64,000 bases of DNA from positions 1 through 64,000 of IMG/VR virus record IMGVR_UViG_3300025785_001261; one strand, 5' to 3'. Positions 5,739-16,987 of this stretch are shown here, one piece after another (within the stretch, counting starts at the first letter, position 1; every line of letters begins with the position of its first letter). Below the pieces are notes generated by a model that saw only the letters and a list, made by a program, of their open reading frames with translations, did not search any database and was not told where the DNA came from. Source of the DNA: a virus. The position numbers and the translations under genes were made by a program.

Positions 5739-6410
5739 ATGAATCACTTGGTGGTGTTTGGCGACAGCTGGCCACATGGTGATGAACTGGCACCAGGAGA
5801 AAAAACATTTGGTGAATTGATTTCCGATGCTTTAGGATTAACATTTCAACGCTACACACAACCGGCTTCCAGCGTTGACCATATGGTCTGGAGCCTGCGT
5901 AATTTTTTAGAAACCAATCCCGGTGTAGACTTTTCCAAATACTGTGCTTTATTCTGCATAACCAGTATAGAACGTAGCATGACCTGGAATCAGAACTACT
6001 GGATGTTCCAGACCATCCGTGGTGGATTCGGTCATCCTCAAGACAATGCCTTATCTACAGAACTCAATCGACTGTATTGGAAATATTTTTATAGTCCAGA
6101 GCAAGCCCTGTTTCGTGCAAACAACAGCATTGTGTGTCTACAGGCCTTGTGTCGTCGGTACGGCATCAAAGACTATTATGTGGCTGGTTGGCAAACTCTG
6201 GATCTATGGTCCGAGATCGATCTAGATAGATTTTATCTAGCCGGACAAGTCAGTATGGCCGACATGATAGATTTAAAAATGGCCAACGGTGTGGTCATTA
6301 GAGAAAATCCCTACATATGGCCAAATCAAAGCAAACCAAATCAGGCCGGACACAAAATTATAGCCGATACTCTGTGTAAATGGATATGTGATCATGCGCA
6401 ACAAACGTGA
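5739..6410 (+). CDS. SGNH/GDSL-like protein
   Basis: VVFGDSW at the N-terminus and KPNQAGH..IA at the C-terminus; start reassigned to 5739. Confidence 0.6.
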   Translation: MNHLVVFGDSWPHGDELAPGEKTFGELISDALGLTFQRYTQPASSVDHMVWSLRNFLETNPGVDFSKYCALFCITSIERSMTWNQNYWMFQTIRGGFGHPQDNALSTELNRLYWKYFYSPEQALFRANNSIVCLQALCRRYGIKDYYVAGWQTLDLWSEIDLDRFYLAGQVSMADMIDLKMANGVVIRENPYIWPNQSKPNQAGHKIIADTLCKWICDHAQQT

Positions 6411-6762
6411 GCTGACCGAGACCCTGGTGGCACAGCTGGACCCTGCCCTGGGCATCACAGTTGATACAGCATATACCACCTGGTGGCACAACATCAGAGC
6501 CGGTGGTGGTATGCGACTTACCGGCGCAGGTGCTAAGGTATTCCTTGAGTATTTAAAATTGGAACACTACACATTTACCGTAGATCCCTTGGCCGTGACT
6601 TCAAGATTGATCATTGACATGGACCGTAGATTGCAACAGCCTTACTATATCCGAATGGTAAAACACTATCCAAGAGAAGTTGTATTTTTTGGCTCCAAAG
6701 AAGCCATGATGGCCAATCTGTATGGTGATCTGAAGAAATTTATTGACAATTATGGTTCATGA
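6394..6762 (+). CDS. hypothetical phage protein
   Basis: 122 aa, WWHNIRAGGGMRLT motif. Confidence 0.7.
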   Translation: MRNKRELTETLVAQLDPALGITVDTAYTTWWHNIRAGGGMRLTGAGAKVFLEYLKLEHYTFTVDPLAVTSRLIIDMDRRLQQPYYIRMVKHYPREVVFFGSKEAMMANLYGDLKKFIDNYGS

Positions 6763-6771
6763 TGCTATAAT
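6743..6771 (+). promoter_or_regulatory. consensus sigma70 promoter for the tRNA/tmRNA locus
   Basis: TTGACA-17 nt-TATAAT with TG extension, 7 nt before the tRNA 5' end. Confidence 0.9.
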
Positions 6772-6778
6772 AGCTTAT

Positions 6779-6855
6779 GGGCCTATAGCTCAGTTGGTTA
6801 GAGCAGAGGACTCATAATCCTTTGGTCCCTGGTTCGAGTCCAGGTGGGCCCACCA
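6779..6855 (+). tRNA. tRNA-Ile2 (CAT, lysidine type); Met not excluded
   Basis: Cloverleaf GGGCCTA/TGGGCCC, anticodon loop CTCATAA, GGTTCGAGTCC T-arm, encoded CCA; resembles bacterial ileX. Confidence 0.9.
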
Positions 6856-6856
6856 A

Positions 6857-6864
6857 TATAAATA
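6857..6864 (+). promoter_or_regulatory. T4-like late promoter box upstream of the tmRNA
   Basis: Exact TATAAATA. Confidence 0.6.
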
Positions 6865-6868
6865 GATT

Positions 6869-7170
6869 TGATTGTTGTAATTCCTTCGTAGTGAAGGCAC
6901 TGTGGACCCGGGTTCGATCCCCGGCATCTCCACCATAAGGGTATAGTATGTTTGAAACATGGCACTGGCAGTACGTATGGGGCATAGCCTGCACTGTAAA
7001 CTATATCTTTATGATGGGGATGACATGGCTTCGACATGGTGAGATAGCGAAAGAGGCAACAGGACAGAGCAGTCCCAAAAACTAAAAAACGTAAACGCAA
7101 ACGACGAACAGTTCGCATTGGCAGCCTAGGCTGTCTAGGGTAGGAAATACCTCGTAACAGAAACAACCAA
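6869..7170 (+). ncRNA. ssrA: circularly permuted (two-piece) tmRNA
   Basis: The acceptor 3' half (GGACCCGGGTTCGATCCCCGGCATCTCCACCA, ending 6935) precedes the 5' half (GGGGATGAC..GGCTTCGAC, from 7016). G3.U70 Ala identity pair. Tag ORF 7097-7129 = ANDEQFALAA*. Confidence 0.93.
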
Positions 7171-7171
7171 G

Positions 7172-7190
7172 AAAGGGCTTCGGCCCTTTT
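7172..7190 (+). terminator. intrinsic terminator after the tmRNA
   Basis: AAAGGGC-TTCG-GCCCTTTT. Confidence 0.85.
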
Positions 7191-7211
7191 CTTACAAATA
7201 AGTACAGTTCT

Positions 7212-11326: not shown

Positions 11327-12420
11327 GGATCTTTGGACCCACTTATCGCTACGCAGGCGAACGTCTTACTCAGGCCGAAACCATCTTCATAGAGGATCAT
11401 CACTATGATGAACAGGCCCGTGGTTATCCAGTACAACAACTGCTGTACAACAGCACGTGTGATCCACATGCACATCTAGTGGTCATAAGCGGCCTGGCTC
11501 ATGACGATGTTCTAGCAGAATATCCGCATGTGTGCCTGCCCTGGTATGCTGCCAATCAAGTGGATCAGTTTGAACAGGAACATATACAGCCTGACTGGAC
11601 CCACAAGACTGCCACATTTAACTTTATGATCAACAAGCCCAGACTGCACAGGAAATTTCTCCTACAGTTGATCGACCATTTTGCGCTGACCGATTACACA
11701 CACAGTCTGCCTTGGCAACGCACTCAAATAGTCACAGAGGATCTGCTGGGTCTGACACAGAATGCTTTGTATCGACATATCATACAGAAACATGGGCAGG
11801 TACCTTGTACCACCACTGACTATAGATTTGGTCCCGAACAGATGATGGATCAAGGAATCCGCAATGGCGCATTCCGCAACAGCCAGACCTACAATGGACT
11901 TTTGCGTGCTCGTGTGTTTGAACCTGCCTGTATCAGCCTCATAACCGATGTGATGTTTTTTGAACGCGAAACAAGAATCTCAGAAAAGACCATCATGGCC
12001 ATATACGGTGGTACTGTTCCTATCTGGGTAGGCGGGTGGCGCATTGCGTCGGGCATGCGAAACTTGGGATTTGATACCTTTGATGACATAGTGGATCATT
12101 CATACGAAGATTTACCCGATCCCTTGGATCGTTGTTATCATGCGGTCAAATTAAACCTGCATCTACTTCAGGAGCCCGATTGGATACGCAACTTCCTGGA
12201 AAAAAATCACGCTAGATTACAACACAATCTGGATCTGTGCCGCGCCAATGTTTTCCGTACACGTTGCCTACAACAGATACAAGAGTTTGATCCCAAGACC
12301 CAACAGGACCTACTAGGTATCCTAGACCGTACTGCTAAATTTTCTTCTACCCTGGGTGATGTCACGGCTCGTTTGAGTCCTGCTCAAATATCTAATTCCA
12401 AACCGGTTGACAAGTCATAA
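11320..12420 (+). CDS. GT10-like putative glycosyltransferase, paralogue 3
   Basis: Close paralogue of the preceding gene (IEDHHY, FNFMINKPRLHR, SEKTIMA, GFDTFDDIVDHSY). Confidence 0.6.
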   Translation: MLRIFGPTYRYAGERLTQAETIFIEDHHYDEQARGYPVQQLLYNSTCDPHAHLVVISGLAHDDVLAEYPHVCLPWYAANQVDQFEQEHIQPDWTHKTATFNFMINKPRLHRKFLLQLIDHFALTDYTHSLPWQRTQIVTEDLLGLTQNALYRHIIQKHGQVPCTTTDYRFGPEQMMDQGIRNGAFRNSQTYNGLLRARVFEPACISLITDVMFFERETRISEKTIMAIYGGTVPIWVGGWRIASGMRNLGFDTFDDIVDHSYEDLPDPLDRCYHAVKLNLHLLQEPDWIRNFLEKNHARLQHNLDLCRANVFRTRCLQQIQEFDPKTQQDLLGILDRTAKFSSTLGDVTARLSPAQISNSKPVDKS

Positions 12421-12435
12421 ATATCTGTGTATAAT
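12407..12435 (+). promoter_or_regulatory. consensus sigma70 promoter driving the leader peptide
   Basis: TTGACA-17 nt-TATAAT. Confidence 0.9.
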
Positions 12436-13023: not shown

Positions 13024-13608
13024 ATGCCAGCAGTATTTTTAACCAGTGACACGCACTTTGGTCATGCGGGTGTATGTCGCTTCACACGAGCAGATGGTGT
13101 TACCAAGTTAAGGCCCTGGACTGATCCAGAAGAAATGGACGAAGCCATGGTCCGGGCCTGGAATGAACGTGTGCGACCCAACGACAAGGTATATCACCTG
13201 GGTGATGTTGTGATCAACCGTCGGGCCTTGAAAACCATGTCCAGATTAAATGGCGACAAGGTCTTGATTCGTGGTAACCATGACATCTTTCCAGACGCAG
13301 AATATCGCGAGTATTTTAGAGAACTGCGTGCCTACCATGTGATGAATGGCATGATCCTAAGTCACATACCTATCCACAGCGAAAGCCTGGGTAGATTTGG
13401 TGTCAACATACACGGGCATACCCACGCCAATCGTGTAATGCGACCGTTGGCCACAAGCGGACGGTCTGATGTTGTTGATGTCAGATACCACTGTGTCTGC
13501 GTTGAGCAGACCGATTTTGCTCCAATCCTGTTTGAGGATGTTGTTAAACGGATTGAAGCAGAAGGTGGTGTGATTGGTTTTAGGAACGGCAACGGTCCTT
13601 CAATGTAA
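13024..13608 (+). CDS. calcineurin-like metallophosphoesterase
   Basis: SDTHFGH, HLGD, RGNHD, SH.P, HGHTH motifs; AGGAGG RBS. Confidence 0.92.
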   Translation: MPAVFLTSDTHFGHAGVCRFTRADGVTKLRPWTDPEEMDEAMVRAWNERVRPNDKVYHLGDVVINRRALKTMSRLNGDKVLIRGNHDIFPDAEYREYFRELRAYHVMNGMILSHIPIHSESLGRFGVNIHGHTHANRVMRPLATSGRSDVVDVRYHCVCVEQTDFAPILFEDVVKRIEAEGGVIGFRNGNGPSM

Positions 13609-13612
13609 TAAA

Positions 13613-13686
13613 GCGGGATTAGTTTAGGGGCAAAACTAGAGATTTCCAATCTTTCGTCATCGGTTCGATTCCGATATCCCGCTCCA
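13613..13686 (+). tRNA. tRNA-Gly (TCC)
   Basis: GCGGGAT/ATCCCGC acceptor stem, loop TTTCCAA, TCCA end. Confidence 0.92.
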
Positions 13687-13691
13687 AGTAT

Positions 13692-13765
13692 TCCGGGCAA
13701 GTGTTACGGTAGCACAGCAGACTCCAAACCTGCTGGACGGGGTTCGATTCCCTGGCTCGGAGCCA
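13692..13765 (+). tRNA. tRNA-Trp (CCA)
   Basis: TCCGGGC/GCTCGGA acceptor stem, loop CTCCAAA, GCCA end. Confidence 0.9.
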
Positions 13766-13768
13766 TGT

Positions 13769-13797
13769 TTGACAAGCAGTAGAAACAAGTGTATAAT
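13769..13797 (+). promoter_or_regulatory. consensus sigma70 promoter
   Basis: TTGACA-17 nt-TATAAT. Confidence 0.88.
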
Positions 13798-13799
13798 AG

Positions 13800-14000
13800 T
13801 ATTACTCATTGTGAAGATTGTGTGCGAAAGATTAAGCAATCCTAACTGTTGAGGAAGATAACCACCCTGTGCGAGTTACTCCACGAGAGAACGCCGTATG
13901 CTGAGACGGCTTAACGACCACAGGGGAACGGCTGACGCATGGTAACCAATCCATCCATAAGTTCTTAAACATGTGACAGTGGTCTTCACAATGAGTAATA
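13800..14000 (+). ncRNA. ~200-nt structured ncRNA, rod-like (6S-like candidate)
   Basis: Perfect 18-bp terminal inverted repeat (TATTACTCATTGTGAAGA / TCTTCACAATGAGTAATA), inner helices CCCTGTG/CACAGGG and GCCGT/ACGGC; own promoter; abuts tRNA-Cys. Confidence 0.7.
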
Positions 14001-14001
14001 T

Positions 14002-14079
14002 GCAACGGTGGCAGAGTGGCCCAATGCGCAGGACTGCAAATCCTGAAAGCCGCTGGTTCAAATCCAGCCCGTTGCTCCA
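14002..14079 (+). tRNA. tRNA-Cys (GCA)
   Basis: GCAACGG/CCGTTGC acceptor, CAGGA-CTGCAAA-TCCTG, TCCA end. Confidence 0.92.
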
Positions 14080-14082
14080 GAT

Positions 14083-14157
14083 GCTCCGTTCGTCTATCGG
14101 TTAGGACACCCGCCTTTCACGCAGGTAAGAGCAGTTCGATTCTGCTACGGAGCGCCA
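14083..14157 (+). tRNA. tRNA-Glu (TTC)
   Basis: GCTCCGT/ACGGAGC acceptor, loop CTTTCAC, GCCA end. Confidence 0.92.
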
Positions 14158-14181
14158 GATATATACAATAAAGGAACCGGT

Positions 14182-14325
14182 ATGCCAGTAAAAGAAACCA
14201 TTAATCGAGCCTACGGCAATACTCCACGAGACCTGCCGGATCCATTCAGCTGGACCGACGATTTCCTGCCCAGAACGTTCAAGTATTTTTGGTTGCGCTG
14301 GATCGTTCGGCGATATTTCCGATAA
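14182..14325 (+). CDS. small hypothetical protein (47 aa)
   Basis: AAGGA RBS; MPVKETINRAYGNTPRDLPDPFSWTDDFLPRTFKYFWLRWIVRRYFR*; below the ORF-track cutoff. Confidence 0.55.
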   Translation: MPVKETINRAYGNTPRDLPDPFSWTDDFLPRTFKYFWLRWIVRRYFR

Positions 14326-16958: not shown

Positions 16959-16987
16959 TTGACAAGTCAGCGCAAATCATGTATAAT
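16959..16987 (+). promoter_or_regulatory. consensus sigma70 promoter
   Basis: TTGACA-17 nt-TATAAT. Confidence 0.88.

What the first reader, a model, noticed from the sequence alone, without database searches (positions are those of the whole stretch)
13769..14000. ~200-nt promoter-driven rod-like ncRNA inside the tRNA cluster: possible phage 6S-like RNA polymerase decoy
Seen: its own consensus promoter and a perfect 18-bp closing stem (13800-17 / 13983-14000). Inside are a short helix TTAAG/CTTAA, a loosely paired centre, helix CCCTGTG/CACAGGG (13865-71 / 13919-25) and apical hairpin GCCGT/ACGGC. There is no credible ORF, and the 3' end abuts tRNA-Cys, so RNase P cleavage would release it. 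Established: 6S RNA is 180-200 nt, with two helical arms around a central bubble, and sequesters sigma70 holoenzyme. Inference: a phage copy could titrate sigma70-RNAP to shut off host or early transcription in favour of the TATAAATA late programme. An omega subunit is encoded 3 kb away. It could equally be an undescribed RNA class.
Basis: partly seen in the sequence, partly recalled or inferred. Interest (0 to 1): 0.75.

Follow-up and report, generated by a model that had tools for sequence, protein, structure and literature searches.

The report
New structured RNA in phage tRNA arrays
The flagged stretch is a real gene for a roughly 200-base folded RNA of an uncatalogued family that uncultured T4-like phages keep inside their tRNA gene arrays; its shape does not match 6S RNA and its job is still unknown.

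Summary
A perfect TTGACA-N17-TATAAT promoter (13769-13797) precedes a 21-bp closing stem (13799-13819 / 13981-14001), and the stem ends one base before tRNA-Cys.

The element is one member of a family. I collected 26 distinct sequences plus more distant ones, all from uncultured phage contigs. Three of these records carry the T4-type capsid gene. Every record checked has one copy, including one complete 162-kb genome.

On the 26-sequence alignment, 93% of cells pair, against 36-53% in slid controls. Compensatory changes occur at 37 of 49 pairs. G-U cells outnumber A-C cells 77 to 16, so the RNA is read from the + strand.

The fold is Y-shaped, not a rod. P1 is followed by a nearly invariant 25-nt one-sided bulge and then P2. 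P2 closes a three-way junction with a branched P3 arm and a variable P4 arm. Two short crossing pairings are possible.

No member matches 6S or any other Rfam family. The omega-like gene and the element each occur without the other.

Verdict: a new structured RNA family of phage tRNA islands. Its function is inferred only: probably a stable trans-acting RNA cut out with the tRNAs. First-stage notes flagged this family on other genomes.

The parts
13769..13797 (+). Sigma70-type promoter: TTGACA, 17-nt spacer, TATAAT. The predicted start is near 13804. It is not part of the conserved RNA.
   Evidence: It scores 12/12. It is one of four perfect copies in the window, against 0.07 expected. The same promoter occurs in L002, L004, L014, L017 and L116, and a different one (TTGATT-17-TATGAT) in L123. 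It is absent where the element follows a tRNA.
13799..13819 (+). P1, 5' strand of the closing stem.
   Evidence: It pairs with 13981-14001. Of 21 pairs, 18 show compensatory changes across 26 sequences. The exact 18-nt repeat was found.
13820..13844 (+). Conserved one-sided bulge of 25 nt (GUGUGCGAAAGAUUAAGCAAUCCUA). The first three bases, GUG, may pair with CAU at 13970-72 in a crossing pairing. CCU at 13841-43 may pair with AGG at 13852-54.
   Evidence: It is nearly invariant in the 26-sequence alignment. GUG/CAY is paired in 98.7% of cells, with one U-A to C-G switch. CCU/AGG is paired in 100% of cells, with two U-A to C-G switches. Support for both short pairings is thin.
13845..13851 (+). 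P2, 5' strand (ACUGUUG).
   Evidence: It pairs with 13974-13980 (UGACAGU). Four of 7 pairs show compensatory changes. The pairing also holds in distant members, as ACUGCC/GGCAGU.
13852..13864 (+). J2/3, a conserved purine-rich junction strand (AGGAAGAUAACCA).
13865..13925 (+). P3 arm. The stem is CCCUGUG/CACAGGG (13865-71 / 13919-25). It encloses hairpin P3a (13879-13889) and hairpin P3b (13893-97 / 13906-10), whose loop is AUGCUGAG.
   Evidence: Six of 7 P3 pairs and 4 of 4 P3b pairs show compensatory changes. P3b loops share the core GCUGA in most members.
13926..13964 (+). P4 arm. It is closed by GAAC/GUUC (13926-29 / 13961-64). Its interior varies between relatives and is exchanged between them.
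   Evidence: Three of 4 closing pairs show compensatory changes. Arm length is about 34-64 nt in reliably parsed members. Modules are shuffled between variants.
13965..13973 (+). J4/2, a conserved junction strand (UUAAACAUG).
   Evidence: UUAAAC is invariant or nearly so in all members, including the distant ones.
13974..13980 (+). P2, 3' strand (UGACAGU). It abuts the P1 3' strand with no unpaired base between them.
13981..14001 (+). P1, 3' strand. It ends one base before tRNA-Cys.
14002..14079 (+). tRNA-Cys (GCA). Cleavage at its 5' end by RNase P would set the 3' end of the RNA.
   Evidence: ARAGORN and Rfam tRNA at 63.4 bits. That RNase P makes this cut is inferred.
13692..13765 (+). tRNA-Trp (CCA), the upstream neighbour in the array.

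Best explanation
Window 13798-14001 (+) is the gene for a stable structured non-coding RNA of about 200 nt. It belongs to an uncatalogued family carried, one copy per genome, inside the tRNA arrays of uncultured T4-like phages.

Shown:
- A covarying fold: P1, a one-sided conserved bulge, P2, and a three-way junction with arms P3 and P4.
- RNA-level selection on the + strand.
- A consensus early promoter in this copy.
- Tight packing against tRNA genes.

Inferred:
- The host sigma70 RNA polymerase makes the RNA early and abundantly.
- The tRNA-processing enzymes trim it: RNase P at the 5' end of tRNA-Cys and, in promoter-less variants, the 3' processing of the upstream tRNA.
- The long P1 helix protects it from exonucleases.
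- It acts in trans. The nearly invariant single-stranded core (the bulge, J2/3, J4/2 and the GCUGA loop of P3b) serves as a binding platform for a partner not yet identified. That partner is most likely a protein of the host or phage translation or RNA-processing machinery.

It is not a 6S RNA by sequence, model or shape.
For: - Family and distribution. There are 26 distinct full-length members plus distant ones. Each record checked has one copy, including the complete 161.8-kb genome G035. Three records with the element carry gp23 capsid genes.
- Structure. On the alignment, 93.4% of cells pair against 36-53% when the partner is slid. Compensatory changes occur at 37 of 49 pairs, and 0 of 500 shuffles reach the observed values.
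- Strand. G-U/U-G cells number 77 against 16 A-C/C-A cells.
- Expression signal. This copy has a perfect promoter. The other three perfect promoters in the window stand in front of tRNA-Met/tmRNA, the phosphoesterase operon and the omega-like gene.
- Packing. P1 starts 0-4 nt after a tRNA and ends 0-16 nt before one in most variants.
- Trans action. The single-stranded segments are more conserved than the helices. Contexts differ, with a tRNA, a GroES-like gene or other genes downstream, so the element is a self-contained module.
Against: - No transcript data exist; all members come from uncultured phages.
- No partner was found. No protein gene is consistently adjacent: the best neighbour, a metallophosphoesterase, lies within 2 kb in only 9 of 26 variants.
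- The conserved strands show no complementarity above chance to E. coli rRNA or to the phage's tmRNA and tRNAs.
- The element always points the same way as the gene just downstream, and often sits between a promoter and that gene. This also fits a cis-acting role.
- In this copy the predicted start near 13804 would remove about 5 bp of P1.
Confidence: 0.45

Rival explanations
1. It is a cis-acting leader or punctuation module. The folded RNA would act on its own transcript: as a processing or stability element for the downstream tRNAs or groES mRNA, or as a put-like or boxA-like signal that makes the transcribing polymerase read on.
For: - It always has the same orientation as the next gene and lies 0-31 nt from it in most variants (tRNA, or the GroES-like gene in four variants).
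- In several variants it lies directly between a strong promoter and those genes.
- J4/2 with the end of P4 (CUCUUAAACA) differs by one base from the rrn boxA core as I recall it. That recollection is from memory and was not tested.
Against: - A 200-240-nt fold with a conserved junction and about 40 nearly invariant unpaired bases is far more than known stabiliser or antitermination signals need.
- No terminator or RBS-sequestering platform follows it.
- The CUC of the boxA-like stretch is base-paired in P4 and covaries.
Confidence: 0.2
2. It is a self-assembling RNA. Copies would bind one another through self-complementary loops to form a dimer or larger RNA-only particle, a small counterpart of ROOL and GOLLD.
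For: - The P3a loop holds a palindrome of 4 nt or more in 11 of 17 distinct loop contexts. The letters change between members (GAUC, UAUA, AUAU, AGCU, UAGCUA, CUAG, UUAA).
- The null expectation is 4-5.8 contexts, giving P = 0.0004-0.006 without correction for shared ancestry.
- Several P4 tips are palindromic too.
- ROOL and GOLLD lie near tRNA islands in phages and form cages partly through kissing loops (PMC12286853).
Against: - The window's own copy has no palindrome in P3a (CACGA) or at the P4 tip.
- Five loop contexts have no palindrome, including the AAUC-type loops.
- GAUC may simply be one form of a conserved RAUC motif.
Confidence: 0.12
3. It is a 6S-like decoy. The RNA would bind sigma70 holoenzyme as an open-promoter mimic and shut down host or early transcription.
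For: - The size is about 200 nt, with a long closing stem and a strong early promoter.
- The same island carries other phage copies of host housekeeping parts: a tmRNA and an omega-like gene. A homologue of that gene matches PF01192 at 24.4 bits, below the 26-bit cut-off.
Against: - No 6S model match at E <= 10 (six members) or E <= 1 (eight more).
- There is no two-sided bubble: the 3' strand opposite the bulge has 0 nt, and P2 covaries.
- The shape is branched.
- The omega-like gene and the element occur independently.
Confidence: 0.07
4. It is a ribozyme, self-cleaving or otherwise catalytic, that takes part in maturation of the tRNA array.
For: - The junction core is conserved, possibly pseudoknotted, and has invariant unpaired bases.
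- It sits at tRNA boundaries.
Against: - No match to any ribozyme family in Rfam.
- By eye, the strand order does not fit the HDV-like, hammerhead or twister folds.
- The tRNA enzymes already explain both ends.
Confidence: 0.06
5. It is a DNA-level element: a miniature inverted-repeat transposable element, a cruciform or an origin defined by the 18-bp inverted repeat.
For: Perfect 18-bp terminal inverted repeats lie about 165 bp apart.
Against: - There is one copy per genome.
- The inner helices covary.
- The G-U versus A-C asymmetry of 77 to 16 shows selection on one transcribed strand.
Confidence: 0.02

Closest known systems
Phage T4 small stable RNAs: species 1 (rnaC) and species 2 (rnaD) of the T4 tRNA cluster
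   Same: - Both are non-tRNA stable RNAs encoded inside the tRNA gene cluster of a T4-type phage, packed directly against tRNA genes (T4 annotation).
- Phages carrying this family have the T4-type capsid gene gp23.
- From my own knowledge, the function of the T4 RNAs is also unknown.
   Different: - There is no sequence or structure relation. Model R1 scores at most 7 bits on the T4 region.
- rnaC is 139 nt and tRNA-like, with a T-arm. This RNA is 200-240 nt, Y-shaped, and has a 14-21-bp closing stem.
GOLLD and ROOL RNAs, the large ornate RNAs of phages and prophages
   Same: - Both are structured RNAs of unknown function encoded by phages, often near tRNA islands (PMC12286853).
- Many members of this family may have self-complementary loops.
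   Different: - GOLLD and ROOL are about three to four times larger.
- Their Rfam models do not match.
- Multimer formation is untested here, and the window's own loops do not suggest it.
6S RNA (Rfam RF00013)
   Same: Similar length, a long closing stem formed by the two ends, and high expression from a sigma70 promoter.
   Different: - No model match.
- A one-sided bulge replaces the central bubble.
- A three-way junction replaces the terminal stem.
Bacterial Y RNAs (YrlA)
   Same: A closing stem formed by the 5' and 3' ends, a structured inner module, and an association with tRNA-like biology.
   Different: - No Rfam YrlA or Y_RNA match on the element.
- There is no tRNA-like module.
- No Ro/TROVE gene was found in the 86-kb record. 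That record is about 25% of the genome, so absence is not proven.

Membership tests
6S RNA | Match to the Rfam 6S covariance model (RF00013 and related models) | tested here: not met
   No hit at E <= 10 on window 13500-14300 or on five relatives, nor at E <= 1 on eight more.
6S RNA | Rod shape: a closing stem, a large central bubble open on both strands, and a terminal stem-loop | tested here: not met
   The 25-nt 5' bulge faces 0 nt on the 3' side. Covarying P2 abuts P1. Beyond it lies a three-way junction with arms P3 and P4.
6S RNA | Binds sigma70 holoenzyme and templates pRNA | not testable with these tools
   This needs a gel shift and a pRNA assay.
T4 rnaC / rnaD | Non-tRNA stable RNA gene inside a T4-type phage tRNA cluster | tested here: met
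   The element lies between tRNA-Trp and tRNA-Cys. Relatives lie in arrays of up to more than 20 tRNAs. Phages carrying the family have gp23. The T4 layout is shown.
T4 rnaC / rnaD | Sequence or structure homology to rnaC or rnaD | tested here: not met
   R1 scores at most 7.2 bits anywhere in the T4 region, with filters off. The folds differ.
GOLLD / ROOL | Match to the Rfam models, and a size of about 500-800 nt | tested here: not met
   No Rfam hit. Members are 197-241 nt long.
GOLLD / ROOL | Homo-oligomer held by conserved intermolecular contacts such as kissing loops | tested here: inconclusive
   The P3a loop is palindromic in 11 of 17 loop contexts, but not in the window's copy.
Y RNA / YrlA | Rfam match and a Ro (TROVE) partner gene | tested here: not met
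   No Rfam match on the element. No TROVE gene in the 86-kb record, which is only a fragment of the genome.
Retron msr-msd RNA | An adjacent reverse transcriptase gene | tested here: not met
   No RVT_1 match in the record. The neighbours are tRNA genes.
Miniature inverted-repeat element | Multiple dispersed copies per genome | tested here: not met
   A single copy in G000 and in five other records.

The most novel reading that the evidence does not exclude
The RNA is the first small member of a functional class still unknown for phages. It could be a compact RNA-only assembly, or an RNP or decoy that acts on the host translation or tRNA-processing machinery, or on a tRNA-targeting defence nuclease. 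In this reading the invariant pseudoknotted core is the active part, and the fast-swapping P3 and P4 arms reflect an arms race.
Probability: 0.15. Interest if true: 0.8.

Novelty: new variant of a known kind. Interest (0 to 1): 0.5.

Why it matters
Stable non-tRNA RNAs in phage tRNA clusters have been known since T4's species 1 and 2 RNAs, and nobody knows what they do. GOLLD and ROOL show that such RNAs can be elaborate machines.

This family offers a compact 200-nt case with strong covariation. It has an unusually conserved single-stranded core and many natural variants with swapped arms. It carries a consensus E. coli-type promoter, so it can be expressed, probed and pulled down in a laboratory host without culturing the phage. 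That makes the old question, what tRNA-island RNAs are for, directly testable.

The result also removes a tempting but unsupported claim of a phage 6S RNA.

Tried and rejected
- Rfam. Scans at gathering and at permissive thresholds on the window and 13 relatives found only tRNAs and tmRNA.
- T4 rnaC/rnaD homology. There is none.
- Retron, Y RNA and RtcB-linked ideas. The 86-kb record has no RT, TROVE or RtcB gene.
- Mobile element. The repeat occurs only as the two arms, and the element is single-copy.
- Base-pairing target. The complement of the bulge is absent from the rest of the window. Duplex searches of the conserved strands against E. coli 16S/23S/5S and the phage tmRNA and tRNAs gave nothing beyond chance.
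- Bulge-to-P4 pairing. It is striking in L004, L002 and L017, with 16 complementary bases. It is not kept in L113 or L134, which have the same type of P4 but a changed bulge, so I read it as incidental.
- Conserved protein neighbour. No consistent one exists.
- Link to the omega-like gene. Rejected by its distribution across records.
- Cultured relatives. There are none among 50,697 GenBank phage records. The exact 19-mer gave only three chance hits in 185,579 bacterial and archaeal species genomes.
- The catalogue of 10,006 candidate viral structured RNAs (PMC10690425). It could not be checked because no supplement text is held.
- An all-against-all column covariation scan for further tertiary pairs was too noisy to use.

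Full report
**What is at the coordinates.** The window is part of an 86-kb IMG/VR virus record estimated at 25% complete. Between tRNA-Trp (13692-13765) and tRNA-Cys (14002-14079) lies a perfect sigma70-type promoter, TTGACA-17-TATAAT, at 13769-13797 (12/12). It is followed by a 204-nt stretch whose two ends pair. With wobble pairs the helix runs 13799-13819 / 13981-14001 and ends one base before the tRNA. The stretch folds at -65.9 kcal/mol, z = -4.9 against shuffles. The window holds four perfect TTGACA-N17-TATAAT sites, all on the + strand, against 0.07 expected. They stand in front of tRNA-Met/tmRNA, a phosphoesterase operon, this RNA and the omega-like gene. The promoter is therefore typical of this phage's strong early units.

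**It is a family.**
- A 19-mer from the 5' part found copies in viral and metagenome contigs. In 185,579 species genomes it found only three hits, none with the rest of the element.
- A covariance model (R1) and a looser 23-nt pattern raised the count to 26 distinct full-length sequences (87-217 bits).
- A second model built from these (R2) also found distant members in large related contigs that R1 had missed. They lie between tRNA-His and tRNA-Met and are bridged by the L096 type.
- Each record checked has exactly one copy, including a complete 161.8-kb genome with terminal repeats.
- Three records with the element encode the T4-type major capsid protein (PF07068), so these are T4-like phages. 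Estimated genome sizes run from about 160 to about 350 kb.
- No cultured phage in GenBank has it.

**The fold** (window coordinates).
- P1, the closing stem, is 13799-13819 / 13981-14001.
- A one-sided, nearly invariant 25-nt bulge follows (13820-13844).
- P2 is 13845-51 / 13974-80. Its 3' strand abuts P1 with no unpaired base.
- P2 closes a three-way junction. J2/3 (13852-64) is purine-rich and conserved.
- P3 (13865-71 / 13919-25) carries hairpins P3a (13879-89) and P3b (13893-97 / 13906-10, loop AUGCUGAG).
- P4 (13926-64) follows P3 directly. J4/2 (13965-73, UUAAACAUG) leads back to P2.

Constrained folds of all 26 members give the same architecture, with 0 nt between P3 and P4 in nearly all.

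**Covariation.**
- On the 26-sequence alignment, 93.4% of cells form standard pairs, against 36-53% when the 3' partners are slid.
- Compensatory changes occur at 37 of 49 pairs, and no shuffle in 500 reaches any of the five measures.
- By helix, the pairs with compensatory changes are: P1 18 of 21, P2 4 of 7, P3 6 of 7, P3b 4 of 4, P4 3 of 4.
- Two short extra pairings are possible. Each rests on only one or two switches: GUG (13820-22) with CAU (13970-72), which would cross P2, and CCU (13841-43) with AGG (13852-54), which would make the P2 5' strand a hairpin loop.
- G-U cells outnumber A-C cells 77 to 16, so selection acts on an RNA read from the + strand.

- Right: the promoter, the closing stem, the CCCTGTG/CACAGGG helix, the GCCGT/ACGGC hairpin, the lack of an ORF and the junction with tRNA-Cys.
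- Not supported: the TTAAG/CTTAA helix (no covariation, outer pair broken in 15 of 26, clash with P4).
- Wrong: the picture of a rod with a loosely paired centre. The molecule is branched and has no two-sided bubble.
- The promoter is not part of the element. About ten variants start 0-4 nt after a tRNA and have no promoter, and L123 has a different promoter.

**Is it 6S?** No Rfam family, 6S included, reaches E <= 10 on the window copy or five relatives, or E <= 1 on eight more. The shape test also fails, as described above. I therefore do not file it as 6S. RNAP binding was not testable, so a 6S-like action keeps a small probability.

**Other known kinds.**
- T4's rnaC and rnaD share the setting, a tRNA cluster of a T4-type phage, but not sequence or fold.
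- GOLLD and ROOL share the setting (PMC12286853) but are several times larger and do not match.
- No reverse transcriptase, Ro/TROVE or RtcB gene is in the record.
- It is not a mobile element.

**Clues to function.**
- The single-stranded parts are more conserved than the helices.
- The P3 and P4 arms vary and have been exchanged between lineages. For example, L113 combines the P3 of L017 with the P4 of L004, and L121 combines a window-like P3b with an L008-like P4.
- The downstream neighbour differs between variants. It is usually a tRNA, but in four variants it is a GroES-like gene 25-31 nt away.
- No protein gene is a constant neighbour.
- The conserved strands have no convincing complement in the window, in E. 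coli rRNA or in the phage's own tmRNA and tRNAs.
The P3a loop holds a palindrome in 11 of 17 distinct contexts while its letters change (P = 0.0004-0.006, uncorrected for ancestry). The window's own loop (CACGA) does not.

**Reading.** The best-supported account is a stable trans-acting RNA. It would be made early from a strong promoter or as part of the tRNA precursor, trimmed by the tRNA-processing enzymes, and protected by P1. It would work through its invariant unpaired core as a binding platform for an unidentified partner. The fold and the family are shown. The maturation route and the mode of action are inferred.

The rivals are, in order:
- a cis-acting leader or processing module;
- an RNA-only self-assembly;
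- a 6S-like decoy;
- a ribozyme;
- a DNA-level element, which is effectively excluded.

**Novelty.** This is a new RNA family with its own fold, within the known but unexplained kind 'structured stable RNAs of phage tRNA islands'. First-stage notes of this scan had flagged the same family on other genomes, and follow-ups of similar but distinct phage tRNA-cluster RNAs reached comparable verdicts. I did not count these as evidence.

Noticed in passing
window 6743-6771, 12407-12435, 13769-13797, 16959-16987: Four perfect TTGACA-N17-TATAAT promoters, all on the + strand (0.07 expected). They head the tRNA-Met/tmRNA unit, a phosphoesterase operon, this RNA and the omega-like gene. Together they look like an early-expressed island of housekeeping look-alikes.
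   Followed up: partly
window 6820-7194: A permuted two-piece tmRNA (Rfam beta_tmRNA 155 bits, tmRNA_permuted 131 bits) with the tag ANDEQFALAA. The same kind of tmRNA lies a few kb from the element in L007, L008 and L096.
   Followed up: partly
L004 6077-6097 with 6233-6250 (also L002, L017): In this variant the P4 arm carries about 16 bases complementary to the RNA's own conserved 5' bulge. This gives an alternative, much more stable rod-like fold (-79 kcal/mol). The complementarity is lost in L113 and L134, which have the same P4 type but a changed bulge. The same P4 also repeats the UUAAAC motif of J4/2.
   Followed up: partly
L122 4260-4515, L129, L126 1502-1759, L114: In four variants a GroES-like gene (Cpn10, PF00166) starts 25-31 nt after the element instead of a tRNA.
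   Followed up: partly
L096 19264-19471; L147 1501-1690 (-); L148 1501-1710: A distant subfamily always precedes tRNA-Met(CAT). It has a different bulge sequence but the same P1, GUGU/ACAC, CCC/GGG, P2 and UUUAAAC core, plus an invariant hairpin GACUG-CUAGUCA-CAGUC. In L096 and L147 the 3' strand of P1 contains TATAAATA, the T4 late-promoter consensus.
   Followed up: no
window 13024-13608 and homologues in L004, L014, L116, L117, L120, L123, L127, L132: A 194-203-aa calcineurin-like metallophosphoesterase is the most frequent protein neighbour of the element, within 2 kb in 9 of 26 variants. It might be an RNA end-healing enzyme of the tRNA island, but this was not tested.
   Followed up: no
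L134 1-8739: This locus carries more than 20 tRNA genes around the element, one of the densest arrays seen here.
   Followed up: no
L124 and L113, just downstream of the element: By eye, the first downstream ORFs look like a rubredoxin (two CxxC pairs, 51 aa) and a rubrerythrin/ferritin-like protein (152 aa). They were not run against any library.
   Followed up: no
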